This document shows positions 1 through 56,200 of a stretch of 64,000 bases of DNA, in pieces. How positions within the stretch are numbered: position 1 is the first letter of the stretch; each line of letters opens with the position of its first letter. Origin of the DNA: Chiloscyllium plagiosum (Eukaryota). The stretch is taken from NCBI RefSeq assembly GCF_004010195.1, contig NC_057753.1:5131513-5195512 (forward strand), given 5' to 3'. The notes under the pieces are model-generated. The model searched no databases and was not told the origin of the DNA. It saw nothing but the letters and a program-made list of their open reading frames with translations. Position numbers and translations under genes: made by a program.

Positions 1-120
1 AGGCTCCCAAGCACTGAGGATGTCACCTAGACAGGGGACGAAACGTCTGCAACACAAATTCCCAGTTTGGCGAACAGAACCACAACAACGAGCACCCGAG
101 CTACAAATCTTCTCACAGAT
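1..120 (+). mobile_element. Penelope-like element 3' terminus (pLTR fragment) carrying a hammerhead motif
   Basis: Related to the terminal sequence that follows the GIY-YIG fragment at 29610-30140 (CTGANGATGT-ACCTAG...GACGAAA). Confidence 0.7.
11..50 (+). ncRNA. Minimal type-I hammerhead ribozyme motif
   Basis: GCA-CTGAGGA-T-GTCACCTAGACAGGGGAC-GAAAC-GTC-TGC: CUGANGA and GAAA boxes, stem II GTC/GAC plus CCT/AGG, palindromic ACGT stem III, GUC cleavage triplet, GCA/TGC stem I. Confidence 0.7.
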
Positions 121-6628: not shown

Positions 6629-7240
6629 ACTAGTGGGGCAGGATCATAGAACACAGAATTTATAAGTAAAAGATCCAAATCTCATTCAACTGATGCAGTG
6701 TTTTGAACAAACCTCAATTGCTGTTAAGTCTTTAATCACTTAGAATGGGGATGCAAGTTTCAATTGATTAATATGTAAATCCCAGCATTTCTTTTAAATC
6801 ACAGCCCTGAGATACCTTAAGGTTTTATCAGTATATTAAAAAAAGATGTCTCAGCTCAGACAATGCATTAAAGGTATGAGGTTAGTGCATTGTCTGAGCT
6901 GAGATGTCACTTTTTTACTGTACAGATAAAACCTTAAGTTATCTCAGGGCTGTGGCTTGAAAGAAATTCTGGGTTTTACATATTAATCAATTGAAACCTC
7001 CATCCCCAATCTGAGTGATTAAACACTTAATATCAATCTAGGTTTGTTCCATACACCGCATCAGTTTTATGACACTTTGATCTTTTTACTATAAATTGTG
7101 TCCTATGATCCTGCCCTACTTAGCTACCTGATGGAGCATTTTCTGAATGCTTGTACTTTCAAATAAACCTGTTGGTCTATAACCTGGTGTTGTGCAATTT
7201 TTAACTTTGTCTACTCCAGTCTAACACTAGCATCTCCCCA
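6625..7240. repeat. About 500-bp imperfect inverted repeat, probably a Penelope-like terminus with inverted copy
   Basis: Arms about 6625-6870 and 6883-7130, e.g. TCTCAGCTCAGACAATGCA / TGCATTGTCTGAGCTGAGA. Confidence 0.75.
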
Positions 7241-9504
7241 TCATGGAATGACCAGCAGGACTGCCCATTGTTCAGAACGGCGACAACATGTCTATCAAGC
7301 TGCAAGAGCTTTTCACACATCACTTTATTGATGAGGCACAGCAGCAACACAGAAGGGAAGAAAAGGAACTAAATTCTTCCTTCTGAGTCGCACCACCTCA
7401 TGGGACTTGCTGTTCAATGCATCCAAAAAATTGTCGCTCTGTTCAATCACATGGAGGCTCTGAGCAGAAACTCATGACCCTCATGGGACTGCTGACAGCG
7501 ATGAGGGGCAATGTGCATCAGGGAGCATGTCCAGTCACCCTGGCCAGAAAGAGGGAATCTTCTGAATATCTCCAACCTGGACTGAGAGTTTTTTGAATTT
7601 GAAAACTCCTTTGACAGGGGCTTGAGAAAGGGATGATTTACACACAGCAAACTCAAACTGCAAGAAATGTTTGTCACTTCTGAATGTCTATCCTGGACTG
7701 ATAGTGATGGGTTTTCTGAACTTTGATTTGCAGCGCATTACAAGAGAATTTGCTGACAAGAAAATGAAACCATAAAATCTGACAGAATCACTCAATTCTT
7801 CAGGACATTGATATTATCAGTCTTTGAGGTAAACATTGAGGGCCAGTTCATTACCACTAGATGCATAACATATTTTCCTTACACCCCCTATCCACCTGCC
7901 CTACAGTGTATCTTAAATCTAGCATGCTGACAATGGGACTAGATTAATTTAGGATATCTGATTGGCATGGATGACTTGGAATGAAGGGTGTGTTTCCATG
8001 CTGTGCAACTCCATGACTCTGTCACATATTAGTTTCATGATCAACTAATGGGAATAGCTTTTTACTTCACCTAAATGTATCCTAAACCCCAGTGCGTCTA
8101 ACATTTTGCAACTCAAGTACCCCCCCCCCTTCCCCCACAAATGAATCATTCTGGTAAATCTCCTCTGCTCCCTCTCAGGGACTTTCCCATCCTTCACAAT
8201 GTGTGGCGACCCCTGGTTTGCGCAGATCCAGATGCTCTGTGTTCTTGTGCACAAAGTCATCACACCGCATGCTGACATTGTCCTCGGGCATTTCCTCAAA
8301 CGTAACTTTTTTTTTCTCTCTGACTCCAGTGTTTCTGATATCTTTCAGACTGCAGGCTCCAGCGGAAGGTTTTCAAAATGGGAACAGCAATTGTTTCAGA
8401 GATGACTGTTTGTAAGCATTCCTCGAAAGTTTCGAAGTTTTAGTGCTGCACTGTATTATCTGTGAGAGTTCCCAAACTTCAGAGTCTGGTACGGATTCTA
8501 TGCTGTGGATCTGAATCCATGTCTGTTGATGGCTCTGTTTGACCTGTACTCTCCCTGATTGCATCTATCGCTGTGCAACTTCCTCTGTCTCTAATAATGG
8601 GTGCATTGTAACTCTGTTTATTAGTTTGCTGTTACTTTGACTGAATGTATTTAAATGCTATCTGTCCACTGACCTGCTCCAAACATAGGTATTGTTCTCT
8701 GGTTTTCTACAGTCTTCCAGTTTTGAGCTGATATTGAACATAAAATTCTGCACCATTTTTAACTGCTTGTAATTCATTCTGCTCCCACTGAAAGGTTAAC
8801 TTGTTTCCTTTCGCCGCAGATTGCCTGACCCATTGACTACTTACAGAATTTGCATGCTTGATTTCAGATTTCCAGCGGCTGTGATGTTGTGCTATCGTCG
8901 TATCCCAGGCCTCCTGAGTAAGAGCTTTTCAGAAAAGGGTGGTTTTCAGCCTGTCGTGGCTGCGTTGGCTCTTGGCGAGAGTAAGACAAGCTCATCCTAC
9001 CCTTCACTAACCGGTCCAGCGCATATTGCCAAAATACAGTTGCGCACAGAGAAGAGAGTGTTTGCCTATCTTAAGTCGCTGCAGTCCGTGTGGTGAACGA
9101 GCTTCCAAAAATTCTGTTAGGTAAGAGGTTAACAGAATTTTCACCCAGAGAGGATGAAGAAGGGTGATATATATCCACATAATTAACACAGTAAATGAAA
9201 TCTGGCCAGTGTGAACTCATTGCTGAGAGGCCTGGAGATGATGGTCTTCCTGACCAGCAGCTGCTTTTATCTTGTTCGGTGGTGAGGTCAATGGGTTTGG
9301 GAGATTTGCCAAATTTTGCAGGGCATTCGATTCCTCATCACAGAATCATATTGAGGCACTTCGATTCTGTACCATGATAAAGATACTGTTCCCACTTGCC
9401 CACACTAGACCCATTGTTGCAAATGGGTGAAGTCAGTCTCCTGCTCCCCTCCCCAGTCTCTCTGTCTGGTCCCAGGGTCTTGTTCAGGCCCATTGGGTTG
9501 GCAG

Positions 9505-10340
9505 TTGAAAAGGGTGTTGCTGGAAAAGCACAGCAGGTCAGGCAGCATCCAAGGAGCAGCAGAGTCAACGTTTCAGGCGTAAGCCTGAAATTCAGAAATT
9601 CCTGATGACGGGCCTACGCCCGAAACTTGACTCTTCTGCTCCTCGGAGAAAGCGAGGACTGCAGATGCTGGAGAGTCAGCGTTCAGGGTGTGTTGCTGGC
9701 AACGCAGAGCTGATTCCTGAAGAAGGGCTTTTGCCCGAAACGTCGATTCTCCTTCTCCTTTGATGCTGCCTGACCTGCTGCTCTTTTCCAGCATCACATT
9801 TTTAAGTTCTGATCTCCAGCATGTCAGATTAGATTAGATTACTTACAGTGTGGAAACAGGCCCTTCGGCCCAACAAGTCCACACCGCCCTACCGAAGTCT
9901 CACCCATACCCCTACACATCTACCCCTTACCTAACACTATGGGCAATTTAGCATGGCCAATTCACCTGACCTGCACATCTTTGGACTGTGGGAGGAAATT
10001 GGAGCACCCGGAGGAAACCAACGCAGACACGGGGAGAATGTGCAAACTCCACACAGTCAGTCGTCTGAGGCGAGAATTGAACCCGGGTCTCTGGTGCTGT
10101 GAGGCAGCAGTGCTAACCACTGTGCCACCCTCTGCAGTCCTCACTTTCTCCCAACGCAGAGCGGGGTCAGGCAGCATCCGAGGAGCAAGGGGGGGGAAAT
10201 CGATGTTTCGGGCATTAGCCCTTTCATCAGGAATTAGGGTTGCTTCCTGATGAAGGGCTTATGCCCGAAATGTTGATTTCCCCCCCCTTGCTCCTGGGAT
10301 GCTGCCTGACCCTGCTGTGCTTTGCCAGCGCCGCACTTTT
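9505..10340. repeat. Cluster of short hammerhead-bearing foldback repeats with a nested HE1-like SINE (9824-10130, minus)
   Basis: CTGANGA-NGGGC-N4-GCCC-GAAA motifs at 9602, 9717 and 10247 (+) and about 10200-10232 (-); the SINE splits CTCCAGCAT|CTGCAGTCCTCACTTTCTCC. Confidence 0.8.
9712..9749 (+). ncRNA. Minimal type-I hammerhead ribozyme motif
   Basis: GATTC-CTGAAGA-AGGGC-TTTT-GCCC-GAAAC-GTC-GATTC: intact core, 4-bp stem II, GUC site, stem I with 4 of 5 pairs. Confidence 0.7.
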
Positions 10341-13954: not shown

Positions 13955-14695
13955 TGTAGTAGCGGGTTTTGAGAAGATTTGCAGCTCAAGTTGAGGTTCT
14001 GGATGCAGGTTTGCTCGCTGAGCTGGAAGGTTTGTTTTCAGATGTTTCGTCACCCTACTAGGCTGGGCGGCACGGTGGCACAGTGGTTAGCACTGCTGCC
14101 TCACAGCGCCAGAGACCTGGGTTCAATTCCCGCCTCAGGCGACTGACTGACTGTGTGGAGTTTGCACATTCTCCCCGTGTCCGCATGGGTTTCCTCCCAC
14201 ATTCCAAAGATGTGCAGGTTAGGTGAATTGGCCATGCTAAATTGTCCGTAGTGTTAGGTAAGGGGTAAATATAGGGGTATGGGTGGTTTGCGCTTCGACG
14301 GGTCGGTGTGGACTTGTTGGGCCGAAGGACCTGTTTCCACACTGTAAAGTAATCTAATCTAATCTAATCTAACATCTTCAGTCAGCCTCCGAATGAAGCA
14401 CTGGTAGTGCAGCCCTCTTTCTATTTATATGTTTATATTTGAGTTTCCTAGGGTTGGTGATGTAATTTCCTGTGGTGATGTCATTTCCTGTTTTTTTCCC
14501 CCTCAGGTCGTGGTAAATAGGATCCAAGTCAATGTGTTTGTTGATAGAGTTCGTTGATAGGAAACTCAAACATATAAATAGAAAGCGGGCTACACCACCA
14601 GTGTTTTGTCCGGAGGCTCACTGACGATGTTACCTAGTATGGTGATGAAATTTCTGAAAACAAACCTTCCAGCTCAGCGAGCAAACCTACATTCA
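13955..14695. mobile_element. Penelope-like terminus with inverted pLTR, containing a nested HE1-like SINE (14063-14369, plus)
   Basis: Inverted copies of CTGAAAACAAACCTTCCAGCTCAGCGAGCAAACCT; the SINE has A/B boxes and a (TCTAA)n tail. Confidence 0.8.
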
Positions 14696-15779: not shown

Positions 15780-17110
15780 AAGAGAAGGACAGCACAGGAT
15801 CGGGCACTTCAGCTCTCCAAATCTGTGCCGATCATCATGCTAAAAAAAATTGTGATATTATTCAGTCCATATCCCTTTACCCCCTCCCTATTCATGTAAC
15901 AATCCAGATGCCTCTTCACTGTTGCCAATGTACCTGCTTCCACCATCTCTTTTGGCAATGCAGTCCAGGCTCCTACCACACTCTGCATGAAAAACGTGCC
16001 TCCGTTAAACTTTCCCCCTCTCACCTTGAACCTGTGGCGCCTTGTAATTAAGACCTCAACCCTGGGAAAAAGCCTCTGACTATCCACCCTCTCGGCGCCG
16101 CTCCTAATTGTGTCCACGTCTAACAGGTCCCCTCTCAGCCGCTGTCTTTCCAGTGAAAATGATCCCAGTCTCTTTAACCTCTCTCCTCAGCCAATGCCCT
16201 CGAGCCCAGAGAACATCGTGGTGAACCTTCTCTGCACTCTCTCTCTAAAGCTTCCTTCTGGTAGTGTGGCGATCAAAACTGCACATCGTACTCCCAACTG
16301 TGGCCTAACGAGGGTTTGATAGAGCTGCAACATGGTTGGCCAACTCTTGTAGTCCATGCCCTAGCCCCAATGAAGGCAAGCATACCATACACCTTCTTAC
16401 ATCACCTTGCCTACCTGTCTTGCCACTTTTAGGGAACTGTGGACTTGCGCGCCCAGACTTGTCTGTACGTTAATGTTCCTAAGTGTTCTGCCATTTGCTG
16501 TACAATTCACCAAAAGACATGACCCACTTATCACTAGTTTCTATACATACAGACAAAAGGAGGGCACCTACTTGGACTGGGACAACACACACCTTCCTCA
16601 GACAGGCGAAACATAGACACGCAAGAGAATTCTTAGAGGCATGGCGTTCTAACCAGAACTCGATCAAAAAACACATGGATTTCGATCCTATCTACCTCCC
16701 TTGGAAAAACAAAAGACAACCGGAAATGACATCATCTGCCTTGAGAAACCAAGACCTATAAGTAGAGAGGTGGGACATACCACCAGCGCTTCACTGAAGA
16801 CTCTCACTGATGATGTTACCTAGTATGGTGACAAAATGTCTGAAAACAAAGCTTCAAGCTCAGTGAGCTAACTTACATACCTTAAAACAATTCACGCTTA
16901 AGTATGGTCCTTCTAAATGTATCACCTTGCATTTGTCTGGATTAAACTCCATCTGCCATTTCTACACCCAAGTCGCCAATCTAGCCATATCCTGTTGAAT
17001 CCTTTCACGATCGCCGGCAGTATCAGCAACTCCACTGGCTTTCAGGTCATCTGAAAACTCACTAATCAGACCACTCACCTTTTCCTCCAGATCATTTACA
17101 CATACTACAA
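15780..17110 (-). mobile_element. CR1-type LINE fragments split by a plus-strand Penelope 3' fragment (about 16500-16885)
   Basis: RVDSQRLFPRVE...VVGAWTALP on minus; Penelope peptide REFLEAW...DPIY on plus. Confidence 0.75.
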
Positions 17111-29609: not shown

Positions 29610-30140
29610 CCCCCAACACACTAAAACAGCAGCTCATGAACTTGAAAGACACTGTACTGACAACAAGCAAAACTAATGCCATTTACAAAATACCTTGTAA
29701 GAACCGTAACAAACATTACATTGGACAAACAGGCAGAAAACTAGCCACCAGGATACATGAACACCAACTAGCCACAAAAAGACATGATGAGGAAGGACAC
29801 CACTTCAACTGGGACAACACATCCATCCTAGGGCAAGCCAAACAGAGATACGCATGAGAATTCCTAGAAGCATGGCATTCCAACCAGAGCTGTATCAACA
29901 AACACATCGACTTGGACGCCATTTACCACCCTCTGAGAAAAAGAACCAGAAATTACATCACCACAGGAAATGGCGTCACCACAGGAAATTACATCACCAA
30001 CCCAAGGAAACTGAAACACATAAATAGAAAGCGGGTCACTAACACCAGTGTTTAACCGGAGGCGCACTGATGATTGTGCATAGTATGGTGACGAAATATC
30101 TGAAAACAAACTTTCTAGCCCAGTGAGCAAACCTACATTC
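29610..30140 (+). mobile_element. Penelope-like element 3' part: GIY-YIG endonuclease and terminus with a degenerate hammerhead
   Basis: NAIYKIPCKNRNKHYIGQTGRKLATRIHEH; CTGATGA...GACGAAATATC at 30067-30100. Confidence 0.9.
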
Positions 30141-53236: not shown

Positions 53237-56200
53237 CTAAACTCCGATGAATACAATCCCAGGATCCTCAGCTGTTCATTGTATGTTAGGCCTACCATTC
53301 CAGGGATCATCCATGTGAATCCCCGCTGGACACGCTGCAGTGCCAGTATGTCCTTCCTGAGGTGTGGGGCCCAAAATTGGACACTGTATTCTAAATGGAG
53401 CCGAACTAGAGCTCTATAAAGTCTCAGAAAGACATCGCTGCTTTTATATTCCAATCCTCTTGAGATAAATGACAATATTACACTTGCTGTCTTCACCACG
53501 GTCTCAAGCTGCAAGTCAATCTTTAGAGAATCCTGGACTAGCACTCCCAGATCCCTTTGTACATTGGCTTTATGAATTTTCTCACCGTTTAGAAAATAGT
53601 TCATGCCTGAATTCTTTTTTCCAAAATGCAAGACCTCACATTTGCTCATTTCCTGGACCATTCTCCTAAACTGTCTGAATCTTTCTGCAGCTTCCCCACC
53701 TCCTCAGAACTACCTGCCTGTCCACCTAACTTCATATCATCGGTGAACTTCGCTAGAATGCCCCCAGTCCCTTCATCCAGCTCATTAATATATAAAGTGA
53801 ACAGCTGCAGCCCCAACACTGAACCCTGCGGGACACCACTTGTCACCAGCTGCCATTCTGAAAAAGAACCATTTATCCCAACTCTCTGCCTTCTGACAGA
53901 TGGCCAATCCTCAGTCCATGCCAATAGCTCACCTCAAACACCATGGGCCCTCACCTTACTCAGCAGCCTCCCATGAGGCACCTTATTAAAGGCGTTTTGG
54001 AAACCTTATTAAAGGTTTCCCTGGTCTAACCTAATTGTTACCTCTTCAAAGAATTCTAACAGGTTTGTCAGGCACGACCTTCCCTTACTGAATCCATGCT
54101 GACTTATTCTAACTTGACCGTACACTTCCAAGAATTTAGAAATCTCATCCTCAACGATGGATTCTAGAATTTTAACTACAACTGAGGTTAGGCTAATTGG
54201 CCTATAATTTTCCATCTTTTGTCTTGATCCTTTCTTGAACAAGGGGGTTACAAACGCGATCTTCCAATCATCTGGGAATTTTCCTGACTCCAGTAATTTT
54301 TGAAAGATCAGAACCAACGCCTCCACTATTTCCTCCGTCACCTCCCACAGAACTCTAGGATGTAGCCCATCGAAGCCTGGAGATTTATCAATTTTTAGAC
54401 CTTTTAGCTTTTCTAGCACTTTCTCTTTTGTAATGGCTACCATACTCAACTCTGCCCCTTAACTCTCCTTAATTGTTTGGATATTACTCATGTCTTCCAG
54501 TGTGAAAACTGACACAAAGTACTTGTTAAGTTCTTCAGCTATTTCCTTATCTCCCATCACTAGCCTTCCTGCATCAATTTAGAGTGGCCAATTTCTACTT
54601 TTGCCTCTCGTTTGTTTCTTATGTATTGAAAGAAACTTTCACGATCATTTCTAATATTACTGGCTAGTTTACCTTCATATTTAATCCTCTCCTTCCTTAT
54701 TTCTCTCTTTGTTATCCTCTTTGTTTTTGTAGCCTTCCCAATCTTCACACCCCTGTCATTACCCTTATTTAACTGTAACACCATTCCATCTGACAATGCC
54801 TTCTCTCTTTCAAACTGCAGACTGAACTCTACCATATTATGATTGCTGCCTCCTAAGTGTTCCCTTACTTTAAGATCTTTTATAAAGTCTGGCTCATTAT
54901 ATAGCATGAAGTCCAGAATAGCCTGCTCCCTTGTGGGTTCCATCACAAGCTGTTCCAAAAAGCCATTCTGTAAGCATTCCATGAATTCCCTTTCTTTGGA
55001 TCCACCGGCAACATTACTCACTTAGTCAATTTGCATATTGAAGTCCCCCATGATCACCGTGACCTTGCCTTTCTGAGAGAAAGTGAGGACTGCAGATGCT
55101 GGAGATCAGAGCTGAAAATGTGTTGCTGGAAAAGCGCAGCAGGTCAGGCAGCATCCAGGGAACAGGAGAATCGACGTTTTGGGCATGAGCCTGAAGAAGG
55201 GCTCATGCCCGAAACGTCGATTCTCCTGCTCCTTGGATGCTGCCTGACCTGCTGCGCTTTTCCAGCAACACATTTTCAGCCCTTGCCTTTCTGACATGAC
55301 CTATCTATTTCCTGGTACATTTTGCACCCCAGTCCTGGCCACTGCTGGGAGGTCCGTACATAGCTCCCATTATGGGTTTTTGTCTTTATGGTTCCTCAAC
55401 TCCACCCAGACGGACTCCACATCATCTGACTCCATGTCATTCAGTGCCATAGATTTAATTTCATTCTTAACTCACAAGGCAACCCTGCCCCCTCTGCCCA
55501 CCTCCCTGTCTTTTCGATAAGTTGTAAATTCTTGGATGTTTAACTGCCAGTCCTGAACCCCCTGCAACCACGTCTCTGTGATGCCTACCACATCATAATC
55601 ATTTACAATGATTGCTGCTGTTAATTCATCTACTTTGTTACGAATACTATGAGCATTCAGGTAAAGCACCTTAATACTAATTTTTCTTATCCTCATGATT
55701 TCCATCACCTCTAGTAGTATGTCCTAAGTAATTCTTCCTTTTTTGTTTTATTTCTAGTCTGCCTAGAACTTTAGCTCTGCTCACATGCTAACCTGCTGCT
55801 TACTTTCTACTTGACTCCATACTCCCTGTTGCTTTCCCTTTCCCCTCCCCCCCACCGACTCACAAGTTTGAAGTCCTAGTGACCACCCTATTGATCCTTT
55901 TCACCAGAACGCTGGTTCCAGATCGGTTCAGGTGGAGGCCGTCCCATCGGTACAGATCTCCCCAGTTCCAAAACTGATGCCAATGTCCCATGAAATGGAA
56001 TCCCTCCTTCCCACACCAATCTCTTAGCCACGTGTTTACTTCCCTAATTCTCTGTTCCCTATGTCAATTAGCACGTGGCTCAGGCAGTAATCCAGAGATT
56101 GTGACCCTCGAGGACCTGTTCTTCGATTTTGTTCCTCGCGCTTGATAATCCCCAAACAGATCCTCCTTCCTAGCCTTGCCGATGTTGTTAGTGCCAACGT

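What the first reader, a model, noticed from the sequence alone, without database searches (positions are those of the whole stretch)
55077..55280. Mobile 204-bp hammerhead foldback element with a perfect 14-bp target-site duplication
Seen: the insert interrupts CR1 ORF2 and is flanked by identical CCTTGCCTTTCTGA. It has 81-bp inverted arms (55111-55191 and 55200-55280, 3 mismatches), encodes no protein, and contains an intact hammerhead core CTGAAGA-AGGGC-TCAT-GCCC-GAAAC-GTC. Relatives occur at about 3838, 9505, 10150, 13408, 17368, 23120, 60045 and 62215. Known: Penelope-like elements carry minimal hammerheads with palindromic stem III and often insert with inverted termini; non-autonomous hammerhead retroelements (retrozymes) exist in other animals. 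Inference: an abundant, fairly recently mobile ribozyme-only retroelement family in sharks. Caveat: this copy lacks a good 5' stem-I strand, and the long hairpin would compete with ribozyme folding.
Basis: partly seen in the sequence, partly recalled or inferred. Interest (0 to 1): 0.75.

Follow-up and report, generated by a model that had tools for sequence, protein, structure and literature searches.

The report
Head-to-head Penelope insertion stub, shark-like
This 204-base mirror-image insert is two short end-pieces of a very common Penelope-like jumping gene set head to head between 14-base target repeats, likely written afresh at the landing site from both cut DNA strands, so it is probably not a self-copying ribozyme element, but such inserts are a readable record of how these poorly understood elements integrate.

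Summary
In detail: 204-bp insert, exact 14-bp target duplication, 81-bp arms with 3 mismatches, minimal hammerhead core. Both arms are the terminal repeat (pLTR) of an autonomous Penelope-like element with RT and GIY-YIG endonuclease; 45,878 exact arm matches exist in the genome. Of 41 unselected short foldbacks, lengths run 137-255 nt with varied junctions, only 2 have this junction, and 40 carry the 34-nt tail on one arm only. This junction makes about 3% of copies in both subfamilies, with the tail on either side. The hairpin abolishes the predicted ribozyme fold, and copy ends do not pile up at its cut site. They pile up 4 nt before the core, with an excess of an extra G (34 of 58), as a capped RNA start would give. 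Best reading: two run-off cDNAs, primed at the two target nicks and joined by microhomology (inferred). The layout is published; I found no paper on the one-tail rule or the extra G. This scan has noted the same thing on much other DNA (310 notes).

The parts
55063..55076 (+). Target-site duplication, left copy (14 bp)
   Evidence: single in 19 of 19 host-repeat paralogues
55077..55110 (-). 34-nt Penelope 'tail' (unit positions +95 to +128), on this arm only; its end is the outer, inferred reverse-transcription start T
   Evidence: continuous with the pLTR and with the ORF leader in parent copies
55111..55191 (-). Inverted arm: pLTR positions +14 to +94, trimmed inside hammerhead stem II; carries subfamily alleles T43/C47
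55190..55191 (.). Head-to-head junction, 2-nt microhomology shared by both arms (junction J0)
   Evidence: 184 exact and 1,035 degenerate matches genome-wide
55190..55280 (+). Sense arm: pLTR positions +4 to +94, ending at the inner, inferred reverse-transcription start S, no tail; alleles C43/T47
55191..55218 (+). Minimal type I hammerhead core (stem II 55199-55210, would cut after 55218); one stem I pair only; predicted sequestered in the hairpin
55281..55294 (+). Target-site duplication, right copy
54300..55700 (-). Host repeat interrupted by the insert: decayed LINE ORF with AP-endonuclease-like motifs (extent examined, not its true ends)
   Evidence: CR1 label recalled

Best explanation
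The insert is a one-off, dead insertion product of an autonomous Penelope-like retrotransposon: two short copies of its terminal repeat joined head to head, likely made when the element's endonuclease nicked both target strands 14 bp apart and its reverse transcriptase primed a copy from each nick. Shown: arm identity, parent with RT and GIY-YIG, target duplication, one tail per insert, varied junctions. Inferred: one copy starts at the tail end (T, +128) and the other 34 nt inside (S, +94), the two start sites described in vitro for the anole element PAc; both run to the capped 5' end of the element's RNA, 4 nt before the hammerhead core, so they are only 94-128 nt long; the two 3' ends are trimmed and anneal by microhomology, here CC. 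The hammerhead is a passenger of the parent's RNA leader and would not fold in this copy.
For: Parent: the same pLTR follows a GIY-YIG domain (L091, L193; Pfam PF01541) and precedes an ORF leader and RT motifs (L129, L189); the RT fragment's relatives mostly carry PF26215, many also PF00078 or PF01541. L190 has the same head-to-head layout, tail on one side and target duplication, with RT/EN inside both arms. Unselected sample of 100 arms: 57 lie in 41 short foldbacks, 137-255 nt, J0 in 2 of 41, exactly one tail in 40 of 41, duplication of 9-19 bp (mode 15) found in 34 of 41. J0 is 184 per 6,046 parent 32-mers in the TCAT subfamily and 1,035 per 30,677 overall, about 3% each. In 70 J0 loci the tail is on one arm in 65 (46 left, 19 right), both in 3, neither in 2. 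The allele mismatch between this copy's arms recurs at 210 loci, about 7 of the first 100 with J0 (by eye), tail on either arm. The tailless arm reaches further 5' in 18 of 40, the tailed arm in 19. Arm 5' ends: 65 of 100 within -9..+14, none between -39 and -10, 2 at the hammerhead cut +33. Extra G before +1 in 34 of 58 free junctions, p = 7e-6 (one search scored by eye). PAc cuts and extends both strands and starts at two sites bracketing the tail (PMC11167929).
Against: Arms usually match each other at the two diagnostic sites (discordant in 9 of 37, against 24.5 expected from independent templates; 2 of the 9 look like later mutations), so two different RNAs are the minority case; one RNA, one source locus, or self-priming also fit. 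Palindrome centres can be deleted after insertion, which blurs the arm-length test. Gene conversion could create mismatched arms. The extra G could be terminal addition by the RT, not a cap; many arms end 1-5 nt upstream of +1 (41 of 143 motif hits), and in that smaller, partly selected set free G was only 11 of 28. No intact full-length parent ORF was seen: the long open frames were runs of N. The RNA start was not observed.
Confidence: 0.8

Rival explanations
1. Independent non-autonomous hammerhead retroelement: a 204-bp master is transcribed, processed by its ribozyme and re-inserted by Penelope proteins.
For: Fixed-end 204-bp copies at 97-100% identity with different flanks, mostly with target duplications; J0 is the commonest single junction (about 17 of 80 loci by eye); core nucleotides are intact.
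Against: Tail flips relative to the junction (46:19); J0 occurs in both loop subfamilies in proportion to their size and in mixed form (81/14/5 of the first 100); predicted stem II pairing probability is 0 in the hairpin versus over 0.97 in the parent leader; many foldback junctions delete part of the core; no pile-up of ends at the cut site.
Confidence: 0.06
2. Still a Penelope by-product, but the palindrome arises by self-priming (fold-back) of one nucleic acid, as proposed in PMC3846280, and is then inserted; uneven centres come from later deletion.
For: Arms are concordant in 28 of 37 pairs; some junctions are perfect palindromes at the +1 site.
Against: Fold-back of a cDNA begun at T makes the tailless arm a subset of the tailed arm, yet the tailless arm is longer at its 5' end in 18 of 40 (16 by 5 nt or more) and in this copy; 210 loci have arms differing at two subfamily sites, against background change of about 1% per non-CpG site.
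Confidence: 0.12
3. A MITE (miniature inverted-repeat DNA transposon) moved by a transposase.
For: Short, non-coding, long inverted arms, many copies.
Against: Ends are asymmetric by the 34-nt tail; duplication length varies 9-19 bp; centre varies; arms are the end of an RT-encoding element.
Confidence: 0.02

Closest known systems
Inverted-pLTR insertions of endonuclease-positive Penelope-like elements (Pen2a_Av, PMC3846280; general scheme, PMC8557442 Fig. 2 legend)
   Same: Head-to-head inverted pLTR, 30-40 nt tail on one end only, target duplication around the whole unit, Inr-like motif in the pLTR.
   Different: Here the unit has shrunk to the two pLTR ends with no ORF, duplications are longer (mode 15 bp versus 8-10 bp in the rotifer examples), and tens of thousands of arms allow counting; that paper proposed self-priming, these counts favour two primings.
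PAc, Poseidon element of Anolis carolinensis (PMC11167929)
   Same: Two internal RT start sites bracketing the tail; both strands cut and extended; hammerhead at the front of the template and not needed for insertion in vitro.
   Different: This parent has a CX4CxxC linker before GIY-YIG (Neptune/Nematis type by PMC8557442); its ORF appears to start about 45 nt after the tail, not in stem II (inferred).
Minimal hammerheads of metazoan PLEs (PMC4209133)
   Same: Core, extra base between 9 and 10.1, G10.1-C11.1 pair, palindromic 15.2-16.2; that paper also notes pairs of motifs on opposite strands 100-700 bp apart.
   Different: Stem I is one pair in this copy and the motif is buried in an 81-bp hairpin.
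Non-LTR retrozymes (bioRxiv 10.64898/2026.07.22.740005)
   Same: Non-coding, PLE pLTR-related, type I hammerhead.
   Different: Retrozymes are head-to-tail tandems with a hammerhead in each unit; this is one inverted pair with one core.
LINE-1 twin priming and cap-derived 5' G (PMC4859970, passages)
   Same: Inversion made by priming from both target strands; untemplated G marking a capped RNA start.
   Different: In L1 the second primer is thought to anneal inside the RNA at variable places (recalled); here both ends sit at two fixed sites 34 nt apart.

Membership tests
EN+ Penelope-like element insertion | Arms are the pLTR of an element with RT and C-terminal GIY-YIG | tested here: met
   seen in broken copies only, no intact ORF
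EN+ Penelope-like element insertion | Inverted 5'-truncated pLTR adjacent, head to head | tested here: met
EN+ Penelope-like element insertion | 30-40 nt tail at one end | tested here: met
   34 nt; one tail in 40 of 41 and 65 of 70
EN+ Penelope-like element insertion | Target-site duplication around the unit | tested here: met
Neptune/Nematis clades of PLE | CX2-5CxxC linker before GIY-YIG | tested here: met
   CNRKKCKTC; definition in PMC8557442
Neptune/Nematis clades of PLE | RT phylogeny with reference elements | not tested
   no named reference PLE sequences held
Minimal type I hammerhead | Core nucleotides, extra base at 9/10.1, G10.1-C11.1, palindromic stem III | tested here: met
   against features in PMC4209133; Rfam no hit
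Minimal type I hammerhead | Stem I and an accessible fold in this copy | tested here: not met
   one stem I pair; stem II probability 0
Minimal type I hammerhead | Self-cleavage | not testable with these tools
   needs an in vitro assay
Non-LTR retrozyme | Head-to-tail tandem units each with a hammerhead | tested here: not met
   single inverted pair; definition
Non-LTR retrozyme | Own lineage of copies with fixed structure | tested here: not met
   no tree was built
Non-LTR retrozyme | Discrete linear or circular RNA | tested here: inconclusive
   one poly(A) single-cell run, no start or end peaks; not a fit library
MITE | Symmetric terminal inverted repeats and short fixed-length duplication | tested here: not met

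The most novel reading that the evidence does not exclude
These stubs are the Penelope equivalent of retroviral strong-stop DNA, made in pairs: a dimeric enzyme primes both target nicks in a coupled way, always one at T and one at S, copies to the capped RNA start just before the hammerhead, and either joins the two ends (giving this palindrome) or jumps to another template (giving the partial tandems that create pLTRs). One mechanism would then explain the tail, the inverted repeat and the pseudo-LTR.
Probability: 0.5. Interest if true: 0.6.

Novelty: new member of a known kind. Interest (0 to 1): 0.33.

Why it matters
As a new ribozyme element it does not stand. Its value is as evidence on an open question: PMC8557442 calls the origin of tandem and inverted PLE structures still undefined. 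Thousands of young stubs give counts (one tail per insert, duplication near 15 bp, either arm longer, occasional mismatched arms, extra G at +1) that make specific predictions for the existing in vitro PLE assay. They also matter for annotation, since they look like MITEs or miRNA hairpins (Rfam gave a weak mir-680 match below its gathering score) and would form long double-stranded RNA when read through.

Tried and rejected
Rfam scan of the window: no hammerhead family at E<=1. L091 and L148 were fetched as possible full-length tandems; L091 was three separate short insertions, and the hits behind L148 (L146, L147) were short partial tandems. Long open frames from the protein search were runs of N; no intact parent ORF was found, so whether the parent is still active is open. 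Pfam gave nothing for L190:3418-4728, the RT fragment or the host flanks; PDB gave nothing. Sequencing runs: no RNA holder listed on record. One raw RNA run (X20, poly(A) single-cell, about 2% read, species not shown to be this one) covers the repeat on both strands with no start or end peak, and X21 laid nothing; not a test of cleavage or of the RNA start. No contig spanned this locus, so its polymorphism is untested. One search dropped one locus through a de-duplication fault; one search is the corrected count. The idea that the tail always sits on one allele type (a single source locus) failed: 19 versus 8 of 30 loci, 3 unclear. Hammerhead cleavage as the cause of the short arms was rejected (2 of 100 ends at +33). 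Literature searches for twin priming with Penelope (2 off-topic papers by listing), for non-autonomous head-to-head hairpins (none), for shark Penelope (listing only) and searches found no paper on these stubs; subscription journals and repeat databases were not searchable.

Full report
Observation. The insert 55077-55280 lies between identical 14-mers. The arms are 81 nt with 3 mismatches and fold as one hairpin, z = -25.5. The hammerhead core is at 55191-55218; Rfam does not detect it. All 19 paralogues of the host repeat that I examined (of 40 scored) hold the 14-mer site once and continue into the right flank, so the duplication was made by insertion. The host is a decayed minus-strand LINE with endonuclease-like motifs; CR1 is a recalled label.

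What the arms are. I number the repeat unit from the A of ATTCC (+1) in a real copy, L088. The right arm is +4..+94; the left arm, on the minus strand, is +14..+128, so it includes a 34-nt extension; the two share CC at the junction. In other loci the same unit follows a GIY-YIG domain with a CX4CxxC linker and is followed, past the extension, by an ORF leader and RT motifs. The RT fragment has 127 relatives, the closest named ones in carpet sharks at 72-80%. So the unit is the pLTR plus tail of an endonuclease-positive Penelope-like element, of Neptune/Nematis type by the linker motif (PMC8557442, passages). Locus L190 shows the same layout at large scale: inverted tailed arm and tailless sense arm, each over 1 kb with RT/EN sequence, inside a target duplication. 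No intact full-length parent was seen.

Is the 204-bp form its own family? At first it looks so: all 40 scored of 935 BLAST candidates match end to end at 97-100%, and the 30 fetched have different flanks (one pair shares a left flank), mostly with duplications. But that search selects for likeness. An unselected sample, the first 100 of 45,878 exact matches to a 34-mer of the arm (all from the first 5.8 Mb of C1), has 57 arms in 41 short foldbacks of 137-255 nt; 2 have this junction (J0); 40 have exactly one tail, 1 has two, none has none; 34 have a duplication of 9-19 bp, mode 15. A gapped pattern gave 1,687 strand matches with many different junctions, J0 in about 17 of the first 80 loci by eye. 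J0 is 184 per 6,046 parent 32-mers in the TCAT-loop subfamily and 1,035 per 30,677 overall; these patterns differ slightly, so the 3.0% and 3.4% are approximate. Among the first 100 J0 hits, 81 are TTAT/TTAT, 14 TCAT/TCAT and 5 mixed (by eye). In 70 of the 184 exact J0 loci the tail is on the left in 46, the right in 19, both in 3, neither in 2. A master copy would fix the tail side and the alleles. J0 is best read as a favoured microhomology join.

How the palindrome forms. PMC3846280 (passages) describes inverted pLTR, one-sided tail and duplication, and proposes self-priming. PMC11167929 (parts 1-2 of 4 read) shows that the anole protein cuts and extends both strands, starts at two internal sites bracketing the tail, and does not need hammerhead cleavage. 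My counts fit priming at both nicks, one at +128 and one at +94. Fold-back of one cDNA would make the tailless arm a subset of the tailed arm; instead the tailless arm reaches further 5' in 18 of 40, the tailed arm in 19, equal in 3. This copy's arms differ at two subfamily sites; that combination occurs at 210 loci with varied junctions and the tail on either arm, while background change is about 1% per non-CpG site. Against this: arms are discordant in only 9 of 37 pairs, not the 24.5 expected of independent templates, so usually both come from one RNA or one source; later deletion and gene conversion are not excluded.

Why the arms are short. Arm 5' ends cluster at the front of the hammerhead: 65 of 100 within -9..+14, none between -39 and -10, 19 further upstream, 16 between +19 and +53, only 2 at the cut site +33. 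The parent sequence there resembles an initiator (recalled consensus YYANWYY). Among the first 100 of 7,603 copies with a non-parental base before +1, 64 have G; after removing 42 explained by the other arm, self-duplication, a second strand of the same locus or a sister family, 34 of 58 have G against 30% expected (p = 7e-6; one search scored by eye). A smaller, partly selected set was weaker, 11 of 28, or 11 of 21 without the sister family. Untemplated G marks capped starts in L1 and SVA (PMC4859970, passages), and the Drosophila element has an internal promoter in its pLTR (PMC2377424, passages). I infer that the RNA starts at about +1 and the arms are run-off copies. Compound loci, with pLTR, tail, about 45-200 nt of leader and then another pLTR, fit template jumps after run-off.

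The ribozyme. The motif has the features listed for PLE minimal hammerheads (PMC4209133, parts 1-2 of 4 read). In this copy stem I has one pair and stem II has predicted probability 0, against over 0.97 in the parent leader. Many junctions cut into the core. It is not a retrozyme as defined in bioRxiv 10.64898/2026.07.22.740005 (part 1 of 5 and passages), which needs head-to-tail units; that preprint includes one chondrichthyan, and its supplements, which I could not see, may list this repeat. RNA data were not informative.

Verdict. Real feature, known layout, a by-product of a shark-type Penelope-like element, not a new kind. The mechanistic counts are the interesting part; my searches found no paper reporting them. 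A sequence look-up of earlier notes found nothing; a word look-up found 310 notes in at least 26 genomes, and the eight shown reach a similar reading. I had reached mine before that call; those notes are not independent evidence.

Noticed in passing
window 14-43, 14621-14650, 16807-16845, 30067-30096: A second, more decayed repeat family with a hammerhead-like core and a longer stem II, probably the end of another Penelope-like element.
   Followed up: no
window 6838-6916: An unrelated 79-bp AT-rich hairpin with about 30-bp arms; weak miRNA-family matches far below gathering scores.
   Followed up: no
L032, L068, L132, L193, L221, L235, L326: A sister family with a different upstream sequence that becomes alike to this pLTR exactly at +1, suggesting that +1 is a module boundary.
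   Followed up: partly
L012, L118-L147: Compound inserts: pLTR, tail, about 45-200 nt of leader, then a jump into another pLTR; miniature partial tandems, some with J0 at their 5' end.
   Followed up: partly
L193:3358-4656: The parent's endonuclease reading frame runs through the hammerhead sequence of the 3' pLTR before it stops, so the ribozyme motif would double as coding sequence.
   Followed up: no
L009 and L012: Identical 300-bp left flanks on different contigs but different right sides: a duplication, rearrangement or assembly join at the hairpin.
   Followed up: no
window 9503-9822: Two nested or adjacent foldback inserts of the same family.
   Followed up: no
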